A stretch of 64,000 nt of DNA, taken from a virus. How positions within the stretch are numbered: position 1 is the first letter of the stretch; each line of letters begins with the position of its first letter. The stretch lies in the IMG/VR virus record IMGVR_UViG_3300000117_000009, positions 1 through 64,000 of that record; one strand, 5' to 3'. Below the pieces are notes generated by a model, which saw only the letters and a program-made list of their open reading frames with translations, made no database searches and had not been told where the DNA came from. Positions 36,671 through 62,484 of this stretch are shown in pieces. A program made the translations under genes and the position numbers.

Positions 36671-36895
36671 ATGAATTTAAACGATACAACAATTGCGCAA
36701 ATTGTTAGACTGATACAGATGGCACTTCTTACTGGAACTGATATTGTTGATCACTTAAGAATGTTAATGCTAGAAGTAGATGAAAACCAAAAGCTAGTAA
36801 TTAATAGTGAGTACGAAAGAGTCTTTAATGAGTCACTTGAAAAAATGATGTCTAATATAAGTGAAAGAGAAAGTGAACCTGTTGCAAAAGACTAG
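36671..36895 (+). CDS. Hypothetical protein
   Basis: 74-aa ORF with RBS AAGGA. Confidence 0.6.
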   Translation: MNLNDTTIAQIVRLIQMALLTGTDIVDHLRMLMLEVDENQKLVINSEYERVFNESLEKMMSNISERESEPVAKD

Positions 36896-37268
36896 CTTAG
36901 ATAAACTTGATATTCTCTTTGATAAAAGAGAGACTTTTATGGAACTTATCAAGAAAAAATACCCAGACTCATACAAAGATTGGCCTTTAGACATTTCAGA
37001 GAAAAGTAGTCAAGTTTTACTTAGAGACACTGCGCTCAAAGGCGTCGAAGAAATGTTTGAAGCACTAGGACATTTAAAGAACTGGAAGCCTCATAGAGAT
37101 ACTGATATGCCTGAGATTGATAGAGAAGAATTCTTAGAAGAAATAGTTGATGCCTTTAATTACTTCTTTTCTTTAATAATTTTAATGGGTGTTGATGTTA
37201 ATGAATTTTATAATGCTTTTAATAAAAAAGACGAGATAATAAGAAATAGAATTAAAAGCAACTATTGA
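36861..37268 (+). CDS. All-alpha NTP pyrophosphatase (dimeric dUTPase / T4 gp56 dCTPase / MazG superfamily)
   Basis: EEMFEA...NWKPH...EEIVDAFNY...K..IIRNR..NY. Confidence 0.82.
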   Translation: MKEKVNLLQKTSLDKLDILFDKRETFMELIKKKYPDSYKDWPLDISEKSSQVLLRDTALKGVEEMFEALGHLKNWKPHRDTDMPEIDREEFLEEIVDAFNYFFSLIILMGVDVNEFYNAFNKKDEIIRNRIKSNY

Positions 37269-37277
37269 TTTATTTAC

Positions 37278-37306
37278 GTGTAAATATTAAATTTATAAAT
37301 TATAAT
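37278..37306 (+). promoter_or_regulatory. Promoter GTGTAAA-N16-TATAAT upstream of the ThyX paralog
   Basis: Exact motif, followed by RBS AAGGAG and a TTG start. Confidence 0.75.
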
Positions 37307-37334
37307 AAATTGGTAATAATAAAGGAGATAAATT

Positions 37335-38306
37335 TTGCCAATTAATAATGATCTTAAACAAGTCACTCTTCCAATGGAACTTAAGTTTGACCAAGTTCCT
37401 GTAACTAACTACATTAACAATCTAGAATCACTTAACATTGAACTAATTGATGGCCCTACTAGAGAACAAGCACAAAAAATTGCTTGGCACATGACAAAAG
37501 CAACATGGGCTGATACGCCTGCAGAAACTGCATTTGAAAACTCTACACCTGAAGAGGCTTCTCTTAATCTTCAAGATGTTCTTAATTTTAGAGCTCTTCC
37601 GACGCCGATGGAATGTTTAGGTTTTACTTTTAAAATTAGCGGAATTGATACACAAACAGTAACACATTTAATTAGACATAGAGCAGGTTCTTTTGCAGCA
37701 CAATGTACTGGCGATAGAGACCTTAGAAACGATAATGTTTTAGTTCCTGAGTCTGTTGAAAATTCAGACTTTCATCATCGATTTATTGAAGTTGCTGCTG
37801 CAGCAAAACAACTTTATTCTGATATGGTTGACTCACGTGCTGTATCACTTATGGACGCAAGAGTTATTCTACCTAAAGCATTAGAAACTTTTTATGTTGC
37901 AAGATTTAATCTTAAAGACTTAATTGGTTTTATTCGTCAACGTCAAGATGTACAAATTCAGCCAGAAGTAGACAATATTATTGCAACTCGTATTGCAAAA
38001 ATTGTTTGTACATCAATTCCTGAAGTTTCTACTTGCTTAAACTTTGAAAAACCAGACATGCATTATGTTCGAACTTTCCGTGTTGAATTACCTGACGGTA
38101 CATTTACATCTCGTGGAACAAATCTTTATTATCCAGAGCCTAAAAACGACTTGTTTGAGTTTAACGAAAAAGACGCTATTTATTCATGTCGTCGTGAAGA
38201 AATTAATGGAAACAAGAAAGGTGAAGAAAAAATCTTTACTAGAATGTGGAACGATGATGTTAAAGCTGTAAGACAAATTAGACAAAATTTAGACAGCGAG
38301 TTTTAA
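37335..38306 (+). CDS. Divergent ThyX-family flavoprotein
   Basis: TPMEC.GFTFKISG, HLIRHRAGSF, DARVILP, FIRQRQD..IQPE. Signature altered to RHRAGSFAAQCTGD; C-terminal extension. Confidence 0.8.
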   Translation: MPINNDLKQVTLPMELKFDQVPVTNYINNLESLNIELIDGPTREQAQKIAWHMTKATWADTPAETAFENSTPEEASLNLQDVLNFRALPTPMECLGFTFKISGIDTQTVTHLIRHRAGSFAAQCTGDRDLRNDNVLVPESVENSDFHHRFIEVAAAAKQLYSDMVDSRAVSLMDARVILPKALETFYVARFNLKDLIGFIRQRQDVQIQPEVDNIIATRIAKIVCTSIPEVSTCLNFEKPDMHYVRTFRVELPDGTFTSRGTNLYYPEPKNDLFEFNEKDAIYSCRREEINGNKKGEEKIFTRMWNDDVKAVRQIRQNLDSEF

Positions 38307-38385
38307 TATAAAACTGTTACAGAAAACAAACTTCTGTGTAAAACAATTAAAAACATGGTAATTTATTTATAAAAGGAACAATTTA

Positions 38386-38835
38386 ATGAAAAAGATTTAT
38401 CTTGCAAGTGGTTGGTTTAATCCAGTTCAAGCAGAAGAACTTACTAATTTAGAGAATATTTTTGATGCAAGATCTGATCATTTTGATCTTGCATCACCTA
38501 GAAGAATTTTTGTTTGTCCTCCTAATGCGCCAAAGGAAGTTCAGGATGAAACTTTTACTGGTAACTTGCACCATATTGAAACAGCAGACTTTTTACTAGT
38601 TAATACTCGCGACAAAGATATTGGCACAATTTGGGAGGCTGGCTATGCATTTGCATTTAAAAAGCCAATTATCTATTTTTGCGCAGGTCTTCCAGAAGGT
38701 GCTAAATTTAATCTTATGTTAGCAAGAAGTGGTATTAAGGTCTGCACATCTTTTGAGCAGCTTGAAGAATACTTGGATAGAGTAATATCTACAGGCGAGC
38801 TACCTAATGAACCTTATGCAGCCGCAATTGAATAA
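38386..38835 (+). CDS. Nucleoside 2-deoxyribosyltransferase / nucleotide N-hydrolase (NDT, DNPH1/MilB family)
   Basis: KIYLASGWF, IETADF, DIGTIWEAGYA (catalytic Glu), FNLML. Confidence 0.88.
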   Translation: MKKIYLASGWFNPVQAEELTNLENIFDARSDHFDLASPRRIFVCPPNAPKEVQDETFTGNLHHIETADFLLVNTRDKDIGTIWEAGYAFAFKKPIIYFCAGLPEGAKFNLMLARSGIKVCTSFEQLEEYLDRVISTGELPNEPYAAAIE

Positions 38836-41104: not shown

Positions 41105-41353
41105 ATGTCATCTTACTCAAAAGGATTAGAAGTTTCTGATCTCGTAACATTTATGCACAAAATTTTTAATAACCAATTTTCAGGCCCACGCACTGCGCTA
41201 GTCTTAAATAGAGAATATCTTTTTGAAAACAAAACAGAATATGGCATTAAAAAGTTTTTTGACTATAAAATGCTAGATACACAAAGTAACAAAGTATATA
41301 ACGTTAAAACAAGAGACATAAAAGTCGTTAAAATTTTAAAAGGAAGCAATTAA
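41105..41353 (+). CDS. Small hypothetical protein (KOW/SH3-like)
   Basis: LEVSDLVTF...TALVL; RBS AAGGA. Confidence 0.5.
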   Translation: MSSYSKGLEVSDLVTFMHKIFNNQFSGPRTALVLNREYLFENKTEYGIKKFFDYKMLDTQSNKVYNVKTRDIKVVKILKGSN

Positions 41354-42339
41354 TGAGAATAGGCATCACTGGTGAAAAAGGTTTTATTGCAACTAACTTG
41401 TCGAAAGAAATTATCAATCAAGGGCATGAATTTGTATCTATTGATAAGTCAGATTACGCTAAGACTCTGATGATATACACAGAAACTGATGAAGTCTGCG
41501 TATATTCTAATAATGCTGAATCCTGGATTCAATTGTTTAAAAGCCTAAATCTTGACTGCATTGTGCATAATGCAGCTGTTGTGGGAACTGATGTTGTTGC
41601 TTTAAATCCTGAGCATTCTATCAACACGAATATTTTAGGCACACAGACAATTGTTGAAGCTGCAAATAGTTGTGACATGCTAATTGTATACACAGGCACA
41701 ACAGTTATTTATGACACGTATAAGTATCAAGAATTTGATATTTTTGAAAATAGTGAAATATTCCCCAGGACAAATTATGCTGTCCAGAAATACGCTGGTG
41801 AGATGCTAGTAAGGAATAATGCAAAAGAGTGGCTTGTTACACGACCTTTATTTGCTTACGGCGGCATTGGTGATATGAACTCTTTAATTGCGAAGTCTTT
41901 ATTTGGCGTTAAAAATGGAATAGAAAACATTGACATATTTTTAGATCCACAAAAAATTAAAGATTATATGCATGTAGAGGACTTTTGTAATAGTGTTGTA
42001 AGGCTAATCGACTCTAGTGTTAGAAATGAAGACTTTAACATTACAGCTAGCAATCCACATAATACTTTAGAAATAGTTTCTATTATAGAAGAAGTTACCG
42101 GTTCAACCTTGGAAATTGTAGTTAAGTGGCACCCAGAAACAGACTATCTAGGAAATCATAGACTGTCTAATCAAAAGTTTGTTGACTTTATGGGCTTTGC
42201 AAATGTTCGAACACTCAGGGAAGGCATTAATCAGTCATGGCAGTCAATAAAAGATGCGAGTGAAAGTTACAATCCCTTAAAATACTTAGATCAAGCTAAG
42301 GCTCAAGATGTCGACTTAAAACAATTTTTTCCTAAGTAG
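41353..42339 (+). CDS. NAD-dependent epimerase/dehydratase (extended SDR, NDP-sugar)
   Basis: GITGEKGFIA, HNAAVVG, NILGT, YAVQK (YxxxK), KDYMHVEDF. Confidence 0.9.
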   Translation: MRIGITGEKGFIATNLSKEIINQGHEFVSIDKSDYAKTLMIYTETDEVCVYSNNAESWIQLFKSLNLDCIVHNAAVVGTDVVALNPEHSINTNILGTQTIVEAANSCDMLIVYTGTTVIYDTYKYQEFDIFENSEIFPRTNYAVQKYAGEMLVRNNAKEWLVTRPLFAYGGIGDMNSLIAKSLFGVKNGIENIDIFLDPQKIKDYMHVEDFCNSVVRLIDSSVRNEDFNITASNPHNTLEIVSIIEEVTGSTLEIVVKWHPETDYLGNHRLSNQKFVDFMGFANVRTLREGINQSWQSIKDASESYNPLKYLDQAKAQDVDLKQFFPK

Positions 42340-50611: not shown

Positions 50612-50677
50612 TATGTGTAAATATAAATATAATATTGTTATAATAAATAAAAACAAGAAAGGTATATAATTTGTCTA
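50612..50677 (+). repeat. 66-bp direct repeat, copy 2 (dnaE promoter GTGTAAA-N17-TATAAT, RBS GAAAGGT, TTG start)
   Basis: 64/66 identical to 49577-49642. Confidence 0.95.
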
Positions 50678-53600
50678 TTGATTTAATAACTCCACCAGAC
50701 AGGTTTGTTTCTCTTCATTCACACTCAACTTTTAGCACTTTTGATGGATTAGGATACCCATCAGATCATATAGACTTTGTTCTTTCTGAATCTCAAGGAA
50801 TGGATGCCTGGGGACTAACAGATCATGGCAATGGTAACGGTCTTGCTCATGCACATTCTCATGCTGTTAAAATGCAAAAGGCAGGCAAAAACTTTCGTCA
50901 AGTTTACGGTGTAGAGTTTTATTTTGTCCCCTCACTAGATCAATGGACTGATGATTATGCTGCACATCGTCAAGCTATTAAAGACGCAAAGACAGCTGCT
51001 GCTGCTGAAAAGAAAGGCAAAGAAAATATTGTCATTGACGCTGATGATGAAAGTGGCGGACTAGTTATAGAGGACGAAGATGAATCTAAAAAAATCGACA
51101 TTCTCAAAGACGAGTGGAAACGCCGATACCACTTAGTCATCACAGCAAGAAACAGAAAAGGCCTTAATAATCTATTTACACTTGTAAAGAAGTCGTATAA
51201 AGACGGATTCTATAGATACCCACGTGTTGACTTTAAAATGATTAAAGAACATGGAGAAGGCCTTCATATATCAACTGCATGTTTAGGCGGCATCTACAGC
51301 AACCGTATTCTTCGCGGTGTTGCACATGACAAATCACGTGACGAAATTCAAAAAGATCTACAAAACCTATCAGACAGATTTACAGACGCTGTTGGTATTG
51401 AAAACTTTAAATTAGAACTACAATTCAATAAGCTTAATAAACAGCATGTTGTTAATGACTACCTCATAGAACATCACAAACTAACTGGCATTCCTCTTAT
51501 TTCAACAGCAGATTCTCACTACCCGAGTAATGATAAGTGGCAAGCGAGAGAGTTGTATAAGAAGCTTGGATGGTTAGGCAAGAAGGATGGCATGACGCTA
51601 CCTGCTTTTGAAGATCTTAAGTGTGAGTTGTATCCTAAGAATGCTCAACAAATGTGGGATGAATTCTTAGAAGGCTATAAAGAACACGACTTCTACAAAG
51701 GGAATGAGCAACTTGTTAAAGAGTCGATAGAAAGAACACACGACATTGTCTGGAATGACTTTGAAGATACTTGGATAGATGTAAGTGCTAAACTCCCAAC
51801 AATATCAATACCTAACAAGACACCTTTCAAACACCTGTCAGATCTAGTTAAGAATGCTTTGGTTAGCGAAGGGTTGCATACTAATAAAGAGTATGTAGAT
51901 AGAGCTAAGTATGAATTGTCTGACATTAAGTATCTTGGGCACGAAGCTTACTTCATTACAATGTATGAGATCTTTAAAAAAGCAGAAACAAAGACATTAT
52001 TTGGGCCTGCGCGCGGGAGTGGCGGAGGCTCGTTAGTTAACTACTTATTAGGCATTACACAGCTTGACCCTATTCCTTATAACTTGCTTTGGAGTAGATT
52101 TTTAGGTAGGCATCGTGTTTCTTGGCCTGATATTGACACAGACGCTGGTGATCGAGATGAACTCATCAATGCAGCAAAGGAATTGTATGGCGATGATGCT
52201 GTTATTCCAGTATCAAACTTTAATACGCTTAAACTTAAATCACTTGTAAAAGACATTGCAAAGTTTTATGATATTCCGTTTGACGAAGTAAACAAAGTAA
52301 CTGGGCCTCTTCAAGATCAAGTTATGCAAAAAGCAATGGACAAGAATCAAGAAAAGTCTGTATTCGTTCTTAAACATGAAGACTGTATGAAATACTCACC
52401 AGAGTATAATGAATTTATGACAGAATATCCTGAGGTCGCTGAACATGTTGAGACTTTGTTTATGCAGAATAGAGCTATCGGTAGACACGCAGGCGGTGTA
52501 ATAATAGCTGATGCTGATTCTCTTGCAGAGTCAATGCCAATTGTTGGTGTTCGTGGAGAACTACAAACTCCCTGGACAGAAGGCATGAACTTTAGAAATC
52601 TTGAAGATAATGGTTTTCTTAAGTTTGATTTCTTAGGCTTAACATTGCTTAAAGACGTAGAAAACTGCATCTATAGGATTCTCAAAAAGCAAGGAAATAA
52701 TAATCCTACATTCACAGATGCAAGAGCATTCTTTGATAAACATTTAAACTGTAGGTTTGTTAAACAAAATGATCCTAAAGTTTGGGAACATGTATACAAA
52801 GACGGAAAGTTTTGTGGAATATTTCAATTTACAGCGCCTGGTGCTAGAAACTTTGCAAAGGAAGCAGAACCTGATTCTATTGAAGAACTAGCAGCTTTAA
52901 CAGCTATATACAGACCCGGTCCACTTAAAGCAAATGTGCATAAGAAGTATGTTAAAGCAAAAAGAAACGCTTCAGAAATTAAGTATGATCACCCTATTAT
53001 TGAAAAGATATTAGGGCCTACGTTTAACTACGTAGTTTTTCAAGAGCAGTTTATGCTACTAGCACAGGAGCTAAGTGGATTTGACCCAGGCGAAGCTGAT
53101 AAGCTTAGAAAAACTCTGGTTAAGAAGTCACTAGATACACTTCATTCTAAAGGTTCAGAAAAAGCAATTGCTAGAGAAAAGTTTATCAAGGGTGCTAAAG
53201 AATTAAACGATGTTCCGGAGTCAGTATCATCTAAGTTATGGGAAGACATAGAAAATTTTGCTGTTTACGGCTTTAACAAGTCTCACGCAGTTGCATATGC
53301 TATTGGTTCATATTACGCAGCTTGGTTGCATACGCATCACGAGACTGAGTGGCTGGCTGCAATATTACAGTCTGAAAATGGTAATCCTAAAGGCATGTCA
53401 AAAGCCATTTCAGAGATTAAGTCGTTTGGGTATGAGATTGCTGCAATAGATATAAATCACTCTGAAGCAGAATGGGAATATTCTGAAGTGTTGAAAGCTT
53501 TTGTTCCGCCACTAACATCGCTCAAAGGAGTAGGAGATAAAGCTGTTGAAGAAGTATTTGCGAATAGACCATACAAAAATTTAAATACTCTATTTTATGA

Positions 53601-54246
53601 TGCAGAAGGAGTATGGAAACATTCCAAGTTAAACAAGACAGCTTTTTCTTCGCTAGCGAAGATGGAAGCATTTAAGTCTCTTGACGAGTTTAAAACTGAC
53701 GAATTGGATAATCACAAGCAACTCCATGATTTAATACTTGATAACTATACTACTCTCAAGAAAGGTTATTGGGGAATGACAAAAACTGCAGTAAAAAGAG
53801 CAAAAAAGAATCAAGAAGAAATTGTTCCAATTGTTGAAGATTTATTGACAAAGTATCGAGTTGTTTCTGACTGGAATAGATCAGAAAAAATTAGGAATTA
53901 TTTTGATCTCAGCAATGATGCAAGTGACGACCTCCTGTTTCCACCAAGTTTAATTAAAAAGTTAAACGACAAGCAAATCAACAGCGTCTTTGATATACCT
54001 GCAGGTGAAAGAGGAATTGGCTGGTTTACAGTGACAGAAGTTATTCATAAGACAACAAAAAACAACAAGGCGTTTATGCGATGGAAGTGTGTTGACTCAG
54101 ATAATCGTAGCGGATGGTTAAGAGTTTGGGGTAGTGTTGAAGATGGTGTTGAGTTTAGTACATGGCTTGCTGACGTAAAGAATGATGCTGGATGGGGTAT
54201 GTCATCTACACTTGCTAAACTTAAAAAGATTAATGCGTTTGATTAA
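50671..54246 (+). CDS. dnaE: DNA polymerase III alpha subunit (family C)
   Basis: PHP motifs LHSHS..DG, TDHG, ADSHY; GPARGSGGGSLV, PDIDTD, GRHAGG, KFDFLGL, YRPGP, YGFNKSHA. Confidence 0.97.
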   Translation: MSIDLITPPDRFVSLHSHSTFSTFDGLGYPSDHIDFVLSESQGMDAWGLTDHGNGNGLAHAHSHAVKMQKAGKNFRQVYGVEFYFVPSLDQWTDDYAAHRQAIKDAKTAAAAEKKGKENIVIDADDESGGLVIEDEDESKKIDILKDEWKRRYHLVITARNRKGLNNLFTLVKKSYKDGFYRYPRVDFKMIKEHGEGLHISTACLGGIYSNRILRGVAHDKSRDEIQKDLQNLSDRFTDAVGIENFKLELQFNKLNKQHVVNDYLIEHHKLTGIPLISTADSHYPSNDKWQARELYKKLGWLGKKDGMTLPAFEDLKCELYPKNAQQMWDEFLEGYKEHDFYKGNEQLVKESIERTHDIVWNDFEDTWIDVSAKLPTISIPNKTPFKHLSDLVKNALVSEGLHTNKEYVDRAKYELSDIKYLGHEAYFITMYEIFKKAETKTLFGPARGSGGGSLVNYLLGITQLDPIPYNLLWSRFLGRHRVSWPDIDTDAGDRDELINAAKELYGDDAVIPVSNFNTLKLKSLVKDIAKFYDIPFDEVNKVTGPLQDQVMQKAMDKNQEKSVFVLKHEDCMKYSPEYNEFMTEYPEVAEHVETLFMQNRAIGRHAGGVIIADADSLAESMPIVGVRGELQTPWTEGMNFRNLEDNGFLKFDFLGLTLLKDVENCIYRILKKQGNNNPTFTDARAFFDKHLNCRFVKQNDPKVWEHVYKDGKFCGIFQFTAPGARNFAKEAEPDSIEELAALTAIYRPGPLKANVHKKYVKAKRNASEIKYDHPIIEKILGPTFNYVVFQEQFMLLAQELSGFDPGEADKLRKTLVKKSLDTLHSKGSEKAIAREKFIKGAKELNDVPESVSSKLWEDIENFAVYGFNKSHAVAYAIGSYYAAWLHTHHETEWLAAILQSENGNPKGMSKAISEIKSFGYEIAAIDINHSEAEWEYSEVLKAFVPPLTSLKGVGDKAVEEVFANRPYKNLNTLFYDAEGVWKHSKLNKTAFSSLAKMEAFKSLDEFKTDELDNHKQLHDLILDNYTTLKKGYWGMTKTAVKRAKKNQEEIVPIVEDLLTKYRVVSDWNRSEKIRNYFDLSNDASDDLLFPPSLIKKLNDKQINSVFDIPAGERGIGWFTVTEVIHKTTKNNKAFMRWKCVDSDNRSGWLRVWGSVEDGVEFSTWLADVKNDAGWGMSSTLAKLKKINAFD

Positions 54247-54652: not shown

Positions 54653-55543
54653 ATGAGATTTTTCAATATTAATATCGAAGGCCCTGATTGCAGTGGCAAA
54701 ACAACTTTATACAGTCAGCTGCACAAAGAAACTAATTTTAAATATAACATTCAAGACAGAAGTTGTATGTCTATGTTTGTTTATGCAAAGATGTATGGAA
54801 GAGAAGATGCATCACTTTGGTTTGATAAAATTTTAGACGACCTTAAGCGACTAGACACACTTTACATACTTCTTTTACCTTCAGAAAAAACAATTCTTAA
54901 TAGACTACAAAAAAGAGGCGATGATTTTCAAGATAAAGACAGCATTTTAAAAGTAAGAAGTTATTTTAGAAATATTGCAAAAATGGGTTTTGGTTCCTAT
55001 CCTAACGTTTTAGTTTTAGAAGAAGATGATTTAGAAACAAATATAAACAAAACATTACAGTTTATAAACGCTCTAAACGAAATGCCTGGTCAAGAACTAA
55101 TCAAGTCTTTAGTGTTTAGCAGTGGTAGAAATGAATTGATTGATGTACAATGTAAAGAAGAAGTTAATAGAAATCATTTGGATTTAACTGTATTAGACTT
55201 TCCTCAAGAAAAAGAGTATTACGAAAAAATTGAGTTTGAGTTTTTTAATAAAATTTTTAGAGAGTTTGTTGGACTAAACGAACGCAATCAAGCACAAAAG
55301 CATGATAGCAGAAGATTTATCTATACTAGTGATAGTTGTATATCAATGATTCACGTTTTATGGCGCCAAAATAAATTAAATGTATTGGCAACCCTAAGAT
55401 CTTCAAACGTATCAAAAACTTTATGGGCTGATTATGAATTTCTTAAGATACTTAGTGTTAAAACTGCCAAAGAAATGTCTTTACCTGAAGATTGTGTTAT
55501 AAAACTTACAGTTGATATTCGATCGGCACATATAGTACCTTAG
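54653..55543 (+). CDS. dNMP kinase fused to a minimal thymidylate-synthase-fold (dCMP hydroxymethylase-like) domain
   Basis: N-terminus: IEGPDCSGKTT, IQDRS, RLQKRGDD. C-terminus: DSRR, SCISMIH, LRSSNV..LWADY, SAHI. Confidence 0.75.
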   Translation: MRFFNINIEGPDCSGKTTLYSQLHKETNFKYNIQDRSCMSMFVYAKMYGREDASLWFDKILDDLKRLDTLYILLLPSEKTILNRLQKRGDDFQDKDSILKVRSYFRNIAKMGFGSYPNVLVLEEDDLETNINKTLQFINALNEMPGQELIKSLVFSSGRNELIDVQCKEEVNRNHLDLTVLDFPQEKEYYEKIEFEFFNKIFREFVGLNERNQAQKHDSRRFIYTSDSCISMIHVLWRQNKLNVLATLRSSNVSKTLWADYEFLKILSVKTAKEMSLPEDCVIKLTVDIRSAHIVP

Positions 55544-55552
55544 AGAATTTTT

Positions 55553-56125
55553 ATGAACCCACAATTTATAATTTATACTGGCCCGATGTTTGGGTCAAAA
55601 ACAACAAGATTAATGTCTGATATCGATCGATCCTTATATAAAGGTCGTAAAGTAATAGCTTTCAAAGCTAAAAAAGACAATAGATATACAAAAGAAACAA
55701 TTAGTACACATACTGGTGCAACATATCCAGCATTTTGCATAAACCATGCTGAAGAGATATTGTGTTATGTAAACGAAGACATACATAATTCAAACACAAT
55801 AGTCGCTGTTGACGAAGCTTTTATGATTCAGGATATTGACTCTGTTTTGATTTCTTTATATCGTAAAGGTGTTAATATAATTGTGTCATCAATTCAATTA
55901 GACGCAAACGAGATACCTTTTGAGAACATAAAAAACATGATGCCTTGGGCGACAAAAATCGAAATTTGTCCAGCTGTCTGTACGATCTGTGACCAGGATG
56001 CATATTTTACAGAAGCTATGTTTGATATTAACAGTGCAACACAAGAAGAAAGAATTGGCTCGTTTGGAATGTATGAGCCAAGATGTGCAACCCACTACAC
56101 TAGTTTTAGAGAGACTAAAGATTGA
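55553..56125 (+). CDS. tdk: Thymidine kinase (type II)
   Basis: YTGPMFGSKTT, DNRY, VAVDEA, AVCTIC, YEPRCATH. Confidence 0.9.
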   Translation: MNPQFIIYTGPMFGSKTTRLMSDIDRSLYKGRKVIAFKAKKDNRYTKETISTHTGATYPAFCINHAEEILCYVNEDIHNSNTIVAVDEAFMIQDIDSVLISLYRKGVNIIVSSIQLDANEIPFENIKNMMPWATKIEICPAVCTICDQDAYFTEAMFDINSATQEERIGSFGMYEPRCATHYTSFRETKD

Positions 56126-57015
56126 AAAAAATTAATGTACCAATTATTCCGAAAGATTTAGGCACAAGGTTCAAGTCGTCAGATATCTGGTTTGTTTGTC
56201 AAACAAACAAATTTGTAAAATCAATTAGACCGCCAAAGTATTCTAGCTTATATAACGGTAAAGCTCATCAAAGATTTGAAGAAGCTTATAGAAAGCATAT
56301 TAAAAATTATCCTGACAATATGTCATTTGTAAAAGCAAGCCTCTTTAATGCGACTAACATTGTAACGCCTAAGCAGATCTTGTTAAATCAAGGTTACACT
56401 TACTATTTTAAACTTTTACCTGAGCAAATCGAAAAATGCCTATTTTCAGTCACTATAGATGGTGAAAATGCTTTAGTAAAAGGTATTCAGGGTTTTGCAG
56501 GAGTATATAAGGTATGGAATGAGAGAAAAGACACATGTACTGAAGTAACATCTTATAGTGACAAGCCAAGTGATAATATTGAAGTTATTATTCCATTTAA
56601 AGTTAAACCTCAATATTACATACCAGAAGTCAAAAAAAGGACTTTTTATCACGGAAGTTTACAAAGATTTAGTTCTTTAAACAAGTTTTCTTACGTAACA
56701 CCTTACAAAGAAGACGCGATTAAATTTGCAATACCTTGGTCATCAGACGAGTTGCTTATAAAAGACAGAGAAATGTCAGATTTAGGTCGGCCGCCTAAGT
56801 GCCTTTACTTTAAAAGAGATATAGAAATAGAAGATAGTAAAGTTTATTTATACGCTATAAAAGGTATTGACACAATTAGCTCTGGAACAAATACAGGAAA
56901 AATCTTTCCTTGGAATAGAATAACATTAAAAGAAGCGTCTGAAGAAGATAAAAGTCTTAAACTTGAAAAGAAGATTATGTCTTGGAAAAAAGTGTTATCA
57001 GCTATTAACATTTAA
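56122..57015 (+). CDS. Two-domain protein with C-terminal ADP-ribosyltransferase-like (Arr-type) domain
   Basis: TFYHGS...L...YVTPYKEDAIKFA...VYLYAI. Confidence 0.5.
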   Translation: MKKINVPIIPKDLGTRFKSSDIWFVCQTNKFVKSIRPPKYSSLYNGKAHQRFEEAYRKHIKNYPDNMSFVKASLFNATNIVTPKQILLNQGYTYYFKLLPEQIEKCLFSVTIDGENALVKGIQGFAGVYKVWNERKDTCTEVTSYSDKPSDNIEVIIPFKVKPQYYIPEVKKRTFYHGSLQRFSSLNKFSYVTPYKEDAIKFAIPWSSDELLIKDREMSDLGRPPKCLYFKRDIEIEDSKVYLYAIKGIDTISSGTNTGKIFPWNRITLKEASEEDKSLKLEKKIMSWKKVLSAINI

Positions 57016-57469
57016 CAGGCGTATATTCTATATTACTGTCATGTTTTTTTAGATCAATTCTAACTTGCTCTAACGTATCTTCCCTGTCATCCCAAAACTT
57101 AACGTAAGTTATATTATCATTTGCACATATTTCATCTAATATTACATGAGACTTATAAATTGGTGCTCTTTCTTTTCTGTAAGCAGACTTAAAGTAACAT
57201 TGATCAAAATCGTTTAAAGACATATTGTTTTGATTTAAAAGCTCTTCTGTTGACATTATATATTCAGATTTATTTGTTCTTGCTGTGCAAAGTATTACTC
57301 TTGTTTGAGAATTACCTAGAGAGTTTTGAAGTTCAGCAACAATATTTTCTATCCAATCTTCTTTTTTATGATCGTATAACGTCATATCAAAGTCATAAAT
57401 ATGTAATGTATTTATTGGTTCTTTTTTTATAATATACTTTATGTAGTTTTCCAGTAGTAAATTAGACAT
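57005..57469 (-). CDS. HAD-superfamily phosphatase (PNKP / RNA-repair-type)
   Basis: IYDFDMTL (DxD), LCTAR, YKS, FWDDR. ATG 57469 with RBS GAGG; LLENYIK leader. Confidence 0.78.
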   Translation of the reverse strand: MSNLLLENYIKYIIKKEPINTLHIYDFDMTLYDHKKEDWIENIVAELQNSLGNSQTRVILCTARTNKSEYIMSTEELLNQNNMSLNDFDQCYFKSAYRKERAPIYKSHVILDEICANDNITYVKFWDDREDTLEQVRIDLKKHDSNIEYTPVKC

Positions 57470-57488
57470 AAAACCTCGGAGTAATTTA

Positions 57489-57908
57489 ATGGTAGATATA
57501 AATAGGCCTTCATGGGACAAAATTTGGATGCAAATGGCAGAAACTATTGCTCAACGTAGCCATCACCCAACTTTTAAAGTAGGTGCACTTATAGTAACGT
57601 CAGATAATACGCAAGTTCTTTCCTTAGGATATAATGGTCGCGCAGCAGGAATGTCAAACGTACCTCAATCTGATGAACCTGGGTGTAGTGGTTTATTGCA
57701 TGCTGAAATTAATGCGTTGCTTAAACTTGACTATAATAATCCTAAAGATAAGGTAATGTACATTACACTAAGCCCTTGCGAAAATTGTGCAATGGCAATT
57801 ATAAATAGCGGCATAAAAAAAGTAGTGTACAAAGATGAGTATAGAGACATGTCAGGTGTAGATTTATTGAGAAAAGCAAATATTACTGTTAATAATATAT
57901 ATTTATAG
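57489..57908 (+). CDS. dCMP deaminase
   Basis: KVGA, GYNG, HAEINA, TLSPCENC, SGIKKVVY...YR. Confidence 0.92.
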   Translation: MVDINRPSWDKIWMQMAETIAQRSHHPTFKVGALIVTSDNTQVLSLGYNGRAAGMSNVPQSDEPGCSGLLHAEINALLKLDYNNPKDKVMYITLSPCENCAMAIINSGIKKVVYKDEYRDMSGVDLLRKANITVNNIYL

Positions 57909-61222: not shown

Positions 61223-61771
61223 ATGAAACTTGACAGCAAGTTAATGCTAAAGCTTTTAAAAGAAGAATACGACAAAAGAATAAACTACTATCTTGGTGAA
61301 GTTGAAACTAGAGCTAAACATAGTCAAGAAGACGGTGAATTGGTGCAAAATGCGAGTGGCTTAAAAGTTAAAGATAGAGCAGGAAACGTGTTTGTAATTG
61401 ATAGACTTGAAGAGCCAGAAGGAGGTGAAATATTAGTTTATTTAATTCCTCCAGGTAGAGAAGATTCAAACTTAAAAATACAAACACCTTCAGCGCCTAT
61501 GAATGATGTTAGAGAGGATAATCTAAGCCAAACTTATAGCTCATTAGAAGTTAATGAAAAAGAAGAAAACGAAAAAGAAGGCAAAAGAAAAATCGATGAT
61601 AAAAAGCCCGATCCTATGAAAAGCGGAGAAATAATCAAGCCAAACCCAAAAGCTAAGACTAAAAAAAGCTTTGACATAAAATCAAATGTTGAAAGCATAG
61701 ACTCTTATGAAGAGGTTAACGGGAGAATAGTTATAACATTAAAACAACTAGATAAGGACTTTACACTATGA
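61223..61771 (+). CDS. Hypothetical protein with LLKE leader
   Basis: 182 aa; RBS AGGAG; ATAATTA at 61191. Confidence 0.6.
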   Translation: MKLDSKLMLKLLKEEYDKRINYYLGEVETRAKHSQEDGELVQNASGLKVKDRAGNVFVIDRLEEPEGGEILVYLIPPGREDSNLKIQTPSAPMNDVREDNLSQTYSSLEVNEKEENEKEGKRKIDDKKPDPMKSGEIIKPNPKAKTKKSFDIKSNVESIDSYEEVNGRIVITLKQLDKDFTL

Positions 61772-62484
61772 ATAAACTAGAAGATATAATCAGTAAAGCT
61801 GTGAGTGATACTTTGCAAGAAAAAGGTGTTAACAATCATCATAATAAAAAGATAGAAAACCTTAATGAATCATATGTAACGCAAGTTGGAAGCTTTAATT
61901 TGCAAACTGAACTTCTTTCTTCAAAAACTAAAAAAGCACATCAACAACTTTTAAAAGGCTATGTAGAAACATTAAACAAAATTTCAGCAAGTTTAGACGG
62001 TGTTGACAAGTCTTCAGCAAACTTAAACATGTCTGCTTTTCGATCTCTTAAGATAGATGAAACATACAATCATAATGCTGCTTTTCTTCATGGTTTGTAT
62101 TTTGAAAACATTAGCGACTTAAGCAGTAATATTTCTGTTGACTCTTTGGCTTATATGCGACTTTCAAGAGACTTTGGCAGCTTTGATGCTTGGCAAGAAG
62201 ATTTTGTTGCTTGTTGCTTGTCAGCTAGAAACGGTTGGGCAATAACTGCATATAATACTCATTTGCAAAGATTTGTTAATACAGTTGTTGACTTACATAG
62301 TTTAAATGTAATGACTGGTATTTATCCAGTTATTATTATGGATTGTTGGGAACATAGCTATTATAGAGACTATTTAAAAGATAGAAAATCATATGTTTTT
62401 GGTATGATGAAAGAATTAAACTGGGAAGTAATAGAAAATAGAATTAAAAAAGCTGATGCGATAGCAAAAATAATTAAAGGTTAA
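61768..62484 (+). CDS. Fe/Mn superoxide dismutase-family protein with N-terminal extension
   Basis: AHQQLLKGYVETLN, LHGLYFENI, DFGSFDAW, NGWA, DCWEHSYYRDY; all four metal ligands are present. Confidence 0.88.
   Translation: MNKLEDIISKAVSDTLQEKGVNNHHNKKIENLNESYVTQVGSFNLQTELLSSKTKKAHQQLLKGYVETLNKISASLDGVDKSSANLNMSAFRSLKIDETYNHNAAFLHGLYFENISDLSSNISVDSLAYMRLSRDFGSFDAWQEDFVACCLSARNGWAITAYNTHLQRFVNTVVDLHSLNVMTGIYPVIIMDCWEHSYYRDYLKDRKSYVFGMMKELNWEVIENRIKKADAIAKIIKG

What the first reader, a model, noticed from the sequence alone, without database searches (positions are those of the whole stretch)
54653..55543. Kinase fused to a stripped-down thymidylate-synthase domain with cytosine-type Asp
Seen: the C-terminal ~150 aa keep the TS core order SRR, catalytic Cys (SCIS), RS, and terminal SAHI. 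Aligning RSSNVSKTLWAD to E. coli ThyA RSCDVFLGLPFN places Asp at position 177 and Asn at 169. The domain is much shorter than ThyA and ends right after the His, without the folate-closing tail. Known: Asn177 specifies dUMP, and Asp at this position specifies dCMP (T4 gp42). Inference: it activates C5 of dCMP, possibly with a non-folate donor or a partner such as the ThyX paralog, and the fused kinase channels the product towards the triphosphate.
Basis: partly seen in the sequence, partly recalled or inferred. Interest (0 to 1): 0.75.

Follow-up and report, generated by a model that had tools for sequence, protein, structure and literature searches.

The report
Kinase fused to mini thymidylate-synthase domain
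An uncultured marine jumbo phage, like hundreds of its relatives, makes one protein that joins a small nucleotide kinase to a half-size, cytosine-type thymidylate-synthase-like enzyme lacking the usual folate pocket, so it probably makes and phosphorylates an altered cytosine nucleotide (perhaps 5-hydroxy-dCMP), although no assay has shown this.

Summary
ORF 54653-55543 (296 aa) has two domains. Residues 1-144 form a YorR/thymidylate-kinase-like P-loop kinase. Residues 145-296 form a 152-residue thymidylate-synthase (TS) fold.

- **Fold:** the C-domain modelled alone (pLDDT 97) matches only TS-family structures at Z 9.6-11.6. The next match is Z 6.0.
- **Register:** profile alignments to E. 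coli ThyA fix C229=C146, R249/S250=R166/S167, N252=D169, D260=N177, H293=H207.
- **Conservation:** D260 is invariant. The Cys, Arg, Ser and His residues are at least 90% conserved down to about 22% identity.
- **What is missing:** the domain ends after the His. It also lacks about 70 internal residues, so a canonical folate pocket is unlikely.

The Asn169/Asp177 pair is the published signature of flavin/O2-dependent 5-hydroxy-dCMP synthases (RB69 gp48, HY126 AfhB). AfhB is also the top structural match. My best reading is therefore a dCMP C5-modifying enzyme fused to the kinase that phosphorylates its product.

Caveats:
- Position 169 flips among N, D and E at least 10 times in the family.
- A sister lineage has lost the catalytic residues.
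- No glycosyltransferase or clear dCTPase was found.
- Nothing has been assayed.

The gene is a syntenic core gene (DnaE-target-SDR-TK-dCMP deaminase) in 80 of 80 fetched viral loci. This scan met the same family before on other genomes, with similar readings. Verdict: a new variant of a known kind.

The parts
54653..55543 (+). Whole ORF, 296 aa: kinase fused to a mini-TS domain
   Evidence: AlphaFold model of the full length: pLDDT 97.0, pTM 0.91.
54653..55084 (+). N-terminal P-loop nucleotide-kinase domain (residues 1-144), YorR/thymidylate-kinase-like and itself shortened
   Evidence: VIA: YorR 2axp Z 13.5 (140 aligned, rmsd 2.7); TMPKs Z about 12. Profile vs PDB: YorR E 1.4e-15, TMPK E 5e-7. 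phrog_761 'thymidylate kinase' E 5.8e-18. Pfam and NCBIfam TMPK models match only below their cut-offs.
54680..54706 (+). P-loop GPDCSGKTT (residues 10-18)
   Evidence: G15 and K16 are invariant; G10 and D12 are at least 90% conserved in 71 diverse homologs.
54755..54760 (+). D35-R36, the 'DR' motif of TMPK/dNK-type kinases
   Evidence: R36 is invariant and D35 at least 90% conserved. It aligns to the DRF of YorR and the DRF/DRY of TMPKs.
54902..54922 (+). LID segment R84...R88-G89-D90
   Evidence: R84 is invariant; R88, G89 and D90 are at least 90% conserved. It aligns to the RxxxRGDE lid of YorR.
55085..55540 (+). C-terminal minimal thymidylate-synthase-fold domain (residues 145-296)
   Evidence: Domain-only model pLDDT 97.2. 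VIA wide: 9iqc Z 11.6 (140 aligned), ThyA 3ix6 Z 11.5, MilA Z 10.3, T4 dCH Z 9.6, next Z 6.0. hhalign vs ThyA: 96.7% probability. No Pfam hit.
55208..55222 (+). E186-K-E-Y189-Y190, a family-specific conserved motif at the start of the long helix
   Evidence: E186 69/71, Y189 65/71, Y190 66/71. It resembles T4 gp42 'RELEWY' (E60), but the register is ambiguous.
55304..55315 (+). D-S-R220-R221, equivalent to ThyA S125-R126-R127 (phosphate-binding arginines donated to the partner subunit)
   Evidence: R220 69/71, R221 66/71. In the predicted homodimer, R220/R221 touch R249/S250/R290/S291 of the other copy.
55334..55345 (+). S-C229-I-S: C229 is the catalytic nucleophile, equivalent to ThyA C146
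   Evidence: C229 68/71 and 78/80. Aligned to C146 of ThyA and C148 of T4 gp42.
55397..55408 (+). R249-S250-S251-N252, equivalent to ThyA R166-S167-C168-D169; Asn at position 169
   Evidence: R249 69/71, S250 70/71. Position 252 is N 42 / D 22 of 71, and N 43 / D 24 / E 13 of 80 loci. It is fixed as N in the window's own clade, 31/32.
55430..55432 (+). D260, equivalent to ThyA N177 (pyrimidine specificity; Asp = cytosine type)
   Evidence: Invariant in every set examined. Aligned to N177 of ThyA and D179 of T4 gp42.
55523..55531 (+). S-A-H293, equivalent to ThyA H207; the protein ends 3 residues later
   Evidence: H293 68/71. The same 'SAH' is found in HY126 AfhB and RB69 gp48; T4 has 'SLH' and ThyA 'DTH'.
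50671..54246 (+). DnaE-type polymerase, the invariant upstream neighbour
   Evidence: Present in 81/81 loci.
55553..56125 (+). Thymidine kinase, a conserved downstream neighbour
   Evidence: PF00265 E 3.8e-32; 64/80 loci.
57489..57908 (+). dCMP deaminase, a conserved downstream neighbour
   Evidence: PF00383 E 7.8e-25; 66/80 loci.
41353..42339 (+). Extended-SDR NDP-sugar epimerase/dehydratase-type protein. In most relatives a paralog lies directly downstream of the fusion gene.
   Evidence: PF01370 E 1e-27. Family present in 55/80 loci, median gap 16 bp. No equivalog cut-off reached.
36861..38835 (+). Candidate companion cluster: weak all-alpha NTP pyrophosphatase (36861-37268), ThyX paralog (37335-38306), NDT/MilB-fold protein (38386-38835)
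   Evidence: Co-located within 10 kb of the fusion gene in 22, 32 and 38 of 80 loci.

Best explanation
The protein is a bifunctional phage nucleotide enzyme.

**C-terminal domain.** It is a homodimeric, minimised member of the thymidylate-synthase superfamily. It binds dCMP as follows:
- The phosphate is held by R249/S250 and by R220'/R221' from the partner subunit.
- The 3'-OH is held by H293.
- The cytosine N3/N4 edge is read by the invariant D260.

C229 attacks C6, making C5 nucleophilic. The folate-binding wall (the ThyA 70-110 region), the loop before the Cys and the C-terminal tail are all missing. The electrophile is therefore most likely not methylene-tetrahydrofolate. The most likely alternative is an oxygen donor of the flavin-hydroperoxide type, as in HY126 AfhB and RB69 gp48, giving 5-hydroxy-dCMP.

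**N-terminal domain.** This YorR/TMPK-like kinase then phosphorylates the product to the diphosphate. It probably also phosphorylates dTMP, as T4 gp1 does. A cellular NDP kinase completes the triphosphate for incorporation by the phage DnaE replicase.

**Shown here:** the folds, the residue register, conservation, the predicted TS-type dimer and the synteny.

**Inferred:** the substrate, the chemistry, the cofactor, the kinase specificity, and whether virion DNA is modified at all.

My odds: TS-fold nucleotide-binding dimer about 0.95; dCMP as ligand about 0.7; C5 modification of some kind about 0.5; specifically 5-hydroxylation about 0.3.
For: **Fold**
- C-domain alone: Z 11.6 to 9iqc (flavin-dependent dCMP monooxygenase, 140/152 aligned), 11.5 to ThyA, 10.3 to MilA, 9.6 to T4 dCH, then a drop to 6.0.
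- Foldseek top hits are 9iqu and 9iqc.
- The BFVD top hits are all TS/dCH homologs.

**Sequence**
- C-domain profile vs PDB: T4 dCH E 2.9e-5, AfhB E 0.004.
- hhalign vs ThyA: 96.7% probability.
- Register: C229=C146, R249=R166, S250=S167, N252=D169, D260=N177, H293=H207.

**Conservation**
- D260 is invariant. C229, R220, R221, R249, S250 and H293 are at least 90% conserved to about 22% identity.

**Dimer**
- ipSAE 0.75 vs best control 0.00. All three runs agree and pLDDT is 91. That mark was reached by 20 of 30 solved homodimers and 1 of 23 monomers.
- R220/R221 contact R249/S250/R290/S291 of the other copy.
- TS dimers are solved, so this pass may reflect likeness to known structures.

**Signature**
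- PMC13326640 shows experimentally that N177D plus D169N marks 5hodCMP synthases, that these need a cognate dNMP kinase to get 5hodC into DNA, and that they use flavin plus O2 (sections 24, 28).
- The window protein has both residues. Like AfhB and gp48, it has 'SAH' and ends just after the His.
- N252 is fixed in the window's clade, 31/32.

**Kinase**
- YorR Z 13.5, TMPKs Z about 12. P-loop, DR and LID motifs are conserved.

**Context**
- The gene sits in a conserved dNTP-supply module next to DnaE (80/80), TK, dCMP deaminase and SDR. An all-alpha NTPase, a ThyX paralog and an NDT-fold protein lie upstream.
- This mirrors the T4 set gp1/gp42/gp56/cd/tk (established knowledge).
Against: - No activity, cofactor or DNA modification has been measured for any member.
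- The domain is about 70-80 residues smaller than the validated hydroxylases (152 vs 234-238 aa). It is unknown whether a flavin can bind.
- Position 252 (=169) has switched among N, D and E at least 10 times on well-supported branches (19 by parsimony), with no strongly co-varying positions. In this family it may not be diagnostic.
- A sister lineage (L013, L014, P0123; 55-60% identical) has lost C229, R249, S250, H293 and E186 but keeps the kinase motifs and the domain. The TS-like chemistry is therefore dispensable there.
- No glycosyltransferase Pfam hit appears among about 45 ORFs scanned on the 107 kb contig or among the recurrent neighbour clusters.
- The putative dCTPase is only a sub-threshold all-alpha NTPase.
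- The surrounding genes are all thymidylate-oriented (ThyX, TK, dCMP deaminase, dUTPase). A plain dTMP kinase would fit that context.
- The N-terminal half of the domain cannot be put in reliable residue register with ThyA, so the catalytic Glu58 equivalent is unassigned.
Confidence: 0.45

Rival explanations
1. The essential activity is the kinase: the phage's dTMP/dNMP kinase for an AT-rich genome. The mini-TS domain is mainly a dimerisation and nucleotide-binding scaffold (allosteric, substrate-capturing or regulatory) for a kinase that has lost most of its own NMP-binding subdomain. It performs no C5 chemistry that ends up in DNA.
For: - The kinase domain lacks 28-54 residues between the P-loop helix and the DR motif relative to YorR and TMPKs (alignments).
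- A sister lineage keeps the domain at the same overall conservation (53-59% vs 58-60% for the kinase) after losing the catalytic residues.
- Neighbours are thymidylate-supply genes: TK, dCMP deaminase, ThyX, dUTPase.
- No glycosyltransferase or clear dCTPase was found.
- The cofactor pocket is stripped.
- Position 169 is labile.
Against: - Cys, both Arg pairs, Ser, His and the specificity Asp are near-invariant over about 150 sequences down to 22% identity. That is hard to explain without catalysis or at least precise dCMP binding.
- Loss of the residues is confined to one small lineage.
Confidence: 0.25
2. It is a folate-dependent dCMP hydroxymethylase or methylase of the T4 gp42 type, with methylene-THF bound in a reduced, open pocket. 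The fused kinase plays the role of T4 gp1.
For: - The best sequence hit of the C-domain profile is T4 dCH (E 2.9e-5).
- The 'IRD' hairpin motif is shared with gp42.
- Thirty to forty-five per cent of family members carry Asp or Glu at position 169, the pterin-binding residue of ThyA.
- A pterin-4a-carbinolamine-dehydratase-like gene recurs in the module (24/80 loci; weak copy at genome 67609-67788).
Against: - The window protein and its whole clade have Asn at 169.
- The C-terminal tail, the loop containing L143 and the ThyA 70-110 region (W80/W83) are absent.
- No DHFR turned up among the ORFs scanned, and the phage uses ThyX.
Confidence: 0.12
3. The Cys-dependent chemistry is something other than adding a group at C5 for DNA. 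Examples are removal of a C5 substituent or halogen, salvage of modified dCMP released from degraded host DNA, or covalent-catalysis-assisted deamination. The kinase recycles the resulting nucleotide.
For: - The TS mechanism (C6 attack) supports dehalogenation, exchange and deamination side reactions without folate (established enzymology).
- There is no cofactor pocket.
- The module also contains an NDT/MilB-fold N-glycosidase-type protein and a DHH phosphoesterase, which suggests nucleotide salvage or clean-up.
Against: - A zinc dCMP deaminase is already encoded next door in 66/80 loci.
- There is no precedent for a dedicated TS-fold demodifying enzyme.
- The Asn169/Asp177 signature has a tested synthetic precedent (PMC13326640).
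Confidence: 0.1

Closest known systems
Flavin/O2-dependent 5-hydroxy-dCMP synthases of the TS superfamily: HY126 AfhB (PDB 9iqu, 9iqc), RB69 gp48, DLP3 gp80 (PMC13326640)
   Same: - TS fold; best structural match (Z 11.6, 140/152 aligned; Foldseek ranks 1-2).
- Catalytic Cys.
- Asp at ThyA-177 and Asn at ThyA-169.
- 'SAH' motif, with the chain ending a few residues after the His.
- Functional dependence on a dNMP kinase. Here the kinase is fused; there it is a separate gene.
   Different: - 152 vs 234-238 residues: about 70 internal residues are missing, including the loop before the Cys.
- Only 16% identity; not detected by Pfam PF00303.
- Fused to a kinase.
- Asn169 is not constant in the family (N/D/E).
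- No arabinose or glycosyltransferase genes were found nearby.
- Flavin binding is untested.
T4 gp42 dCMP hydroxymethylase (PDB 1b49, 1b5d, 6a9a)
   Same: - Best sequence-profile hit (E 2.9e-5); Z 9.6.
- Cys, RS, Asp179-type specificity residue, 'IRD' hairpin and His are all collinear.
- Works together with a dNMP kinase (gp1) in T4.
   Different: - gp42 has Asp at the 169 position (RSND) and uses CH2-THF.
- It is 246 aa, with the folate-binding elements and about 27 more C-terminal residues.
- It is not fused to a kinase.
E. coli ThyA / classical thymidylate synthase (PF00303)
   Same: - Fold (Z 11.5 to Brucella ThyA; hhalign 96.7%).
- Obligate-dimer architecture with cross-subunit arginines (predicted).
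- C146, R166, S167, H207 and R126/R127 equivalents.
   Different: - N177 is Asp and D169 is Asn.
- Lacks ThyA residues after 210, the 133-143 loop (L143), and most of the 40-120 region (W80/W83 helix).
- No match to PF00303 even at E 10 or less.
SPbeta YorR (PDB 2axp, 3kb2) and bacterial thymidylate kinases
   Same: - The N-domain matches at Z 13.5 (YorR) and about 12 (TMPKs).
- Profile E 1.4e-15 to YorR.
- P-loop, DR motif and RxxxRGD lid.
   Different: - Shorter still than YorR: a 28-residue gap after strand 2, and a 54-residue gap vs Aquifex TMPK.
- Below the TMPK curated cut-offs (25.9 vs 83.25 bits).
- I found no published YorR substrate.
T4 dNTP-synthesising gene set (gp1 dNMP kinase, gp42, gp56 dCTPase, cd, tk, td/frd, nrdAB)
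   Same: The module here contains functional analogues: fused kinase + TS-like domain, dCMP deaminase, TK, ThyX, RNR, dUTPase, and a weak all-alpha NTPase.
   Different: - Kinase and TS-like enzyme are one polypeptide.
- ThyX replaces td/frd.
- The dCTPase assignment is sub-threshold.
- No DNA glucosyltransferase was identified.

Membership tests
Thymidylate synthase superfamily (fold level) | TS alpha/beta fold with a central sheet | tested here: met
   Domain-only model: seven TS-family chains at Z 9.6-11.6 (132-140 of 152 residues aligned), next Z 6.0. Foldseek prob 1.00.
Thymidylate synthase superfamily (fold level) | Catalytic Cys (ThyA C146) plus phosphate-binding R166/S167 and R126'/R127' | tested here: met
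   C229, R249, S250, R220 and R221 are aligned by HMM and hhalign and at least 90% conserved.
Thymidylate synthase superfamily (fold level) | Obligate homodimer with arginines donated across the interface | tested here: met
   Prediction only: ipSAE 0.75 vs best control 0.00. R220/R221 contact R249/S250 of the partner. This may reflect likeness to solved TS dimers.
Thymidylate synthase superfamily (fold level) | Match to the curated family model Pfam PF00303 | tested here: not met
   No hit at E 1 or less for the protein. No hit at E 10 or less in the whole 107 kb record.
Folate-dependent TS / dCMP hydroxymethylase (ThyA, T4 gp42) | Folate-binding elements: C-terminal tail, W80/W83 helix, Asp169 | tested here: not met
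   The alignment ends at ThyA 210. About 70 internal residues are absent, including ThyA 133-143 and about 100-118. Position 169 is Asn.
Folate-dependent TS / dCMP hydroxymethylase (ThyA, T4 gp42) | Asp at ThyA-177 for dCMP (gp42 D179) | tested here: met
   D260 is aligned to N177/D179 and invariant.
Flavin-dependent 5hodCMP synthase (AfhB / RB69 gp48) | N177D plus D169N signature (PMC13326640 section 28) | tested here: met
   N252 and D260 in the window protein. N is fixed in its clade, 31/32, but is only 54-59% of the wider family.
Flavin-dependent 5hodCMP synthase (AfhB / RB69 gp48) | Acidic residue at ThyA-L143 | tested here: inconclusive
   The loop containing L143 is deleted in the hhalign alignment. 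D227, two residues before the Cys, is common (41/71), but its equivalence is unproven.
Flavin-dependent 5hodCMP synthase (AfhB / RB69 gp48) | Binds FMN/FAD and uses O2 to give 5hodCMP | not testable with these tools
   No coordinates of the model or of 9iqc were available for a pocket comparison. A biochemical assay is needed.
Flavin-dependent 5hodCMP synthase (AfhB / RB69 gp48) | Accompanied by DNA glycosyltransferases and sugar-activation genes | tested here: inconclusive
   No GT Pfam hit in about 45 ORFs scanned or in the recurrent neighbour clusters. An NDP-sugar-type SDR is adjacent in 55/80 loci. The record is only 42% complete, and several conserved neighbours are unannotated.
Thymidylate kinase (PF02223 / TIGR00041) | P-loop, DR(Y/F) motif, LID arginines | tested here: met
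   GPDCSGKT, D35-R36, R84/R88 are conserved and aligned to YorR and TMPKs.
Thymidylate kinase (PF02223 / TIGR00041) | Score above the curated family cut-off; complete NMP-binding subdomain | tested here: not met
   PF02223 20.2 bits vs 27. TIGR00041 25.9 vs 83.25. There are 28-54-residue gaps in the NMP-binding region.

The most novel reading that the evidence does not exclude
The mini-TS domain is a new cofactor-in-trans or composite-site C5-functionalising enzyme. The deleted folate wall would be replaced either by the fused kinase domain or by a partner from the conserved module, such as the flavoprotein ThyX paralog or a reduced pterin recycled by the PCD-like protein. dCMP would then be hydroxylated, or otherwise substituted at C5, by chemistry not yet described for the TS fold, and phosphorylated without leaving the protein. 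That would give an unrecognised modified cytosine in the DNA of a cosmopolitan clade of marine jumbo phages.
Probability: 0.15. Interest if true: 0.85.

Novelty: new variant of a known kind. Interest (0 to 1): 0.62.

Why it matters
If the domain is active, a large and abundant clade of uncultured aquatic phages would make a C5-modified cytosine nucleotide with the smallest TS-fold enzyme known. The family's reach is 455 protein clusters at 90% identity, 118 at 50%, and 169 IMG/VR contigs up to 284 kb. The enzyme lacks a folate pocket and is hard-wired to its kinase.

That would have three consequences:
- It would extend the newly discovered 5-hydroxycytosine (or a related) DNA chemistry from enterobacterial, Acinetobacter and Rhizobium phages to the ocean.
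- It would define the minimal catalytic core of the TS superfamily.
- It would give annotation pipelines a family that Pfam PF00303 currently misses, so surveys based on that model overlook it.

If the domain proves to be a pseudo-enzyme scaffold, it is instead a clean example of a TS fold recruited as a dimerisation module for a kinase.

Tried and rejected
- **Pfam, PHROGs, NCBIfam on the protein:** only weak kinase hits, nothing for the C-domain.
- **Single-sequence phmmer vs PDB:** only YorR.
- **VIA second look on the full-length model:** the list was filled by kinases, so the C-domain had to be folded alone.
- **The look-up of encoding contigs:** Neighbourhoods of the possible stand-alone forms (P0220, P0233, P0235) could not be fetched. 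A viral-contig scan with P0233 found nothing.
- **tblastn of three diverse members against 50,697 isolate phage records:** only partial kinase matches, so no cultured phage with the family was found.
- **Genome-contig scan:** alignments A4 and A2 were rejected as too variable. With A1, only kinase-domain relatives in DPANN archaea and Patescibacteria were found, and no C-domain.
- **Search for longer architectures (519-2000 aa):** none, which is weak evidence.
- **Residue register of the N-terminal half of the domain vs ThyA:** local and global hhalign disagree, so the E186=E58 claim was dropped.
- **BFVD hit to a 151-aa protein of cyanophage S-CBWM1 (TM 0.63):** the whole genome was searched with the C-domain profile, a max-sensitivity HMM and a motif pattern. 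Nothing matched, so it is not a sequence-level member.
- **Correlation of N vs D/E at position 252 with neighbouring genes:** confounded by lineage and by the 10 kb flank limit, so no conclusion.
- **Literature searches** for the fusion, for AfhB's primary paper and for YorR function: nothing usable beyond PMC13326640.
- **Model coordinates** are not exposed to the Python box, so the flavin pocket and the kinase/TS interdomain geometry could not be inspected.
Full report
**What is there.** The window is part of a 107.3 kb IMG/VR virus record that CheckV estimates at 42% complete. It has about 32% G+C and a large-phage gene set: DnaE, gp32-like protein, RecA, DnaB, a T4-type baseplate protein, RNR, ClpP and GroEL. 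ORF 54653..55543 (+) encodes 296 aa. It has 455 homolog clusters at E 1e-3 or better in the 90%-identity protein collection. Nearly all are 295-297 aa, from marine metagenomes, on contigs up to 278 kb.

**N-terminal domain.** Residues 1-144 form a P-loop nucleotide kinase.
- Pfam and NCBIfam thymidylate-kinase and dNK models match only below their cut-offs.
- phrog_761 'thymidylate kinase' matches at E 5.8e-18.
- A family profile hits SPbeta YorR at E 1.4e-15 and TMPKs at E 5e-7.
- In the full-length AlphaFold model (pLDDT 97.0, pTM 0.91), this domain aligns to YorR at Z 13.5 (140 residues, rmsd 2.7) and to TMPKs at Z about 12.
- The P-loop, D35-R36 and the R84/R88-G-D lid are conserved.
- The domain is itself shortened. 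The printed alignments show gaps of 28 residues (YorR) and 54 residues (Aquifex TMPK) in the NMP-binding region.

**C-terminal domain: fold and register.** No Pfam, PHROG or NCBIfam model covers residues 145-296.
- An exhaustive HMMER search with this part alone found 118 clusters at 50% identity. Almost all are about 300 aa, with the match running to the C-terminus.
- Nearly all full-length members carry the N-terminal P-loop.
- Folded alone with a 93-row alignment, the domain gives pLDDT 97.2.
- Against 48,161 PDB representatives, only TS-family chains score high. These are 9iqc at Z 11.6 (140 aligned), ThyA 3ix6 at 11.5, two more ThyA at 10.8 and 10.5, MilA at 10.3, plant DHFR-TS at 10.2 and T4 dCH at 9.6. 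The next hit is Z 6.0.
- Foldseek on the full model ranks HY126 dCMP hydroxylase AfhB (9iqu, 9iqc) first. The viral library returns only TS/dCH homologs at the top.
- By sequence, a C-domain-only profile reaches T4 dCH at E 2.9e-5 and AfhB at E 0.004.
- I fetched E. coli thyA, T4 gene 42 and RB69 ORF048c. An hmmsearch and hhalign (96.7%, E 4.3e-10) against them fix the register. It is C229=C146, R249=R166, S250=S167, N252=D169, D260=N177 and H293=H207, with SRR 219-221 = S125-R127.

**What has been removed.** The 152 residues span ThyA 2-210.
- Nothing follows the His, so the C-terminal tail that closes on folate is absent.
- hhalign shows deletions of about 11 residues before the Cys (ThyA 133-143, including L143), about 19 residues near ThyA 100-118, and more in the 40-90 region.
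- The secondary structure is helix A, strand i, one short and one long helix, then strands ii-iv, helix J and strand v. This is the dimer-interface sheet plus the nucleotide site.
- The residue register of the N-terminal half is ambiguous. I therefore do not assign the Glu58 equivalent, although the conserved E186-x-x-Y-Y resembles T4's E60-L-E-W-Y.

**Conservation.**
- In 71 full-length homologs down to about 22% identity, D260 is invariant. C229 (68/71), R220, R221, R249, S250 and H293 are at least 90% conserved.
- The same holds in 80 IMG/VR loci: Cys 78/80, Asp 80/80.
- Position 252 is N 42 / D 22 of 71, and N 43 / D 24 / E 13 of 80.
- On a 150-sequence ML tree it needs 19 changes, against about 52 when labels are shuffled. 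At least 10 changes are forced by well-supported branches.
- The window's own clade of 32 is N in 31.
- No other position co-varies strongly with it.
- A sister lineage (L013, L014, P0123) has an intact kinase but has lost C229, R249, S250, H293 and E186. Its domain as a whole stays as conserved as the kinase.

**Quaternary structure.** Two copies of the C-domain are predicted to pair: ipSAE 0.75 (runs 0.75-0.76) against a best control of 0.00.
- The three runs agree fully and pLDDT is 91.
- That mark was reached by 20 of 30 solved homodimers and 1 of 23 monomers.
- R220/R221 of one copy touch R249, S250, R290 and S291 of the other. This is the TS-type dimer.
- Because TS dimers are solved, the pass may be from likeness to known structures.

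**Literature link.** PMC13326640 (NAR 2026) shows that RB69 gp48, DLP3 gp80 and nine other TS homologs make 5-hydroxy-dCMP.
- They carry N177D, and D169N is their diagnostic residue.
- They bind a flavin and use O2.
- Co-expression with the cognate dNMP kinase is what puts 5hodC into DNA at levels visible by UV. The synthase alone gave only a trace seen by extracted-ion chromatogram.
- That paper's searches relied on Pfam and mention no fused or truncated forms.
- The window protein has both signature residues. Like AfhB and gp48, it has 'SAH' and a chain end just after the His.

**Genomic context.** In 80 viral loci (31-89% identity) the gene always follows DnaE. Its recurrent neighbours are listed below.

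| Neighbour | Loci of 80 |
|---|---|
| dCMP deaminase | 66 |
| Thymidine kinase | 64 |
| NDP-sugar-type SDR (median gap 16 bp) | 55 |
| SOD-like protein | 51 |
| NDT-fold protein | 38 |
| DHH/DHHA1 phosphoesterase | 37 |
| ThyX paralog | 32 |
| PCD-like protein | 24 |
| All-alpha NTPase | 22 |
| GMP reductase | 13 |

- In this window the ThyX, all-alpha NTPase (sub-threshold), ThyX paralog and NDT genes lie at 35.5-38.8 kb. The SDR is at 41.4 kb.
- No glycosyltransferase was detected among the ORFs scanned.
- PF00303 finds nothing in the record.
- No isolate phage carries the C-domain.
- The one genome-collection scan that ran found only kinase-domain relatives in cellular genomes.

**Interpretation.** The anatomy fits a dimeric TS-type nucleotide site specific for dCMP, with a competent Cys nucleophile but without the canonical folate pocket, fused to the kinase that a modified dCMP needs.
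- The closest tested precedent is flavin-dependent 5-hydroxylation. I put about 0.3 on that specific chemistry and about 0.5 on C5 modification of any kind.
- The main rival (0.25) is that the kinase is the essential part and the mini-TS domain is chiefly a dimerisation or nucleotide-binding scaffold. The decayed sister lineage, the thymidylate-centred neighbourhood and the lability of position 169 support it. The near-invariance of the whole catalytic set elsewhere argues against it.

**Novelty.** I found no description of this fusion or of a 150-residue TS fold in the papers searched. It is a new variant of a known kind, the TS superfamily and specifically the dCMP-type branch. This scan has already met the same family on other genomes, with similar follow-up readings. 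I reached mine before seeing those notes.

Noticed in passing
Same genome beyond the window: G000:C1:95441-98916 (L002:11441-14913): A contiguous trio: GMP reductase/IMPDH-family (E 9.7e-98), adenylosuccinate synthetase PurA-like (E 1.7e-94) and Lyase_1/PurB-like (E 1.7e-28). This is either a GMP-to-AMP conversion route suited to an AT-rich genome, or possibly a PurZ-type 2-aminoadenine pathway. GMP reductase also sits next to the fusion gene in 13/80 related loci.
   Followed up: no
window 36861-38835: A weak all-alpha NTP pyrophosphatase, a divergent ThyX paralog (323 aa, PF02511 E 2e-19, well below the TIGR02170 cut-off) and an NDT/MilB-fold protein (PF05014 E 3.8e-12) form a block. The block recurs upstream of DnaE in 22-38 of 80 related loci. 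It may be a second pyrimidine-modification or clean-up module.
   Followed up: partly
L013:10001-10879 and L014:10001-10888 (IMG/VR contigs of 240 and 211 kb); also P0123: Sister-lineage copies of the fusion protein keep all the kinase motifs but have lost the TS-like Cys, Arg, Ser, His and Glu. The invariant Asp and the fold-level conservation remain. This is a natural pseudo-enzyme version of the domain.
   Followed up: yes
G000:C1:67528-67869 (L103), and L043:19565-19933: A pterin-4a-carbinolamine-dehydratase-like ORF (weak here, E 6e-4; E 1.3e-6 in L043) is a conserved member of the module, present in 24/80 loci within 10 kb. A pterin-recycling enzyme next to a folate-pocket-less TS-like enzyme is intriguing.
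   Followed up: partly
L036:10034-10882 and 36 other loci: A DHH/DHHA1 phosphoesterase (NrnA-like, weak) is conserved between TK and dCMP deaminase in distant relatives. In this window the same position holds an unannotated 297-aa ORF (56122-57015) and a HAD phosphatase (57005-57520, minus strand).
   Followed up: no
window 61768-62484: A SOD-like protein (238 aa) matches only the Fe/Mn-SOD C-terminal domain in Pfam (E 6.9e-20). It has a long divergent N-terminus and is conserved in 51/80 loci of the module.
   Followed up: no
L084-L099 (genome contigs): The nearest cellular relatives of the kinase domain alone (27-32% identity over residues 5-140) are in DPANN archaea (Woesearchaeota, Nanoarchaeota) and Patescibacteria MAGs. 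None carries the TS-like domain.
   Followed up: no
Synechococcus phage S-CBWM1, MG450654.1 (L105-L111): BFVD lists a 151-aa uncharacterised protein of this isolate as a structural look-alike of the mini-TS domain (TM 0.63 both ways). No ORF in the genome matches the family profile or its motif pattern.
   Followed up: yes
G000:C1:72015-73652, 94463-95383, 105333-106625: The phage also encodes a GroEL-type chaperonin, a UvdE UV-damage endonuclease and an ATP-dependent DNA ligase.
   Followed up: no
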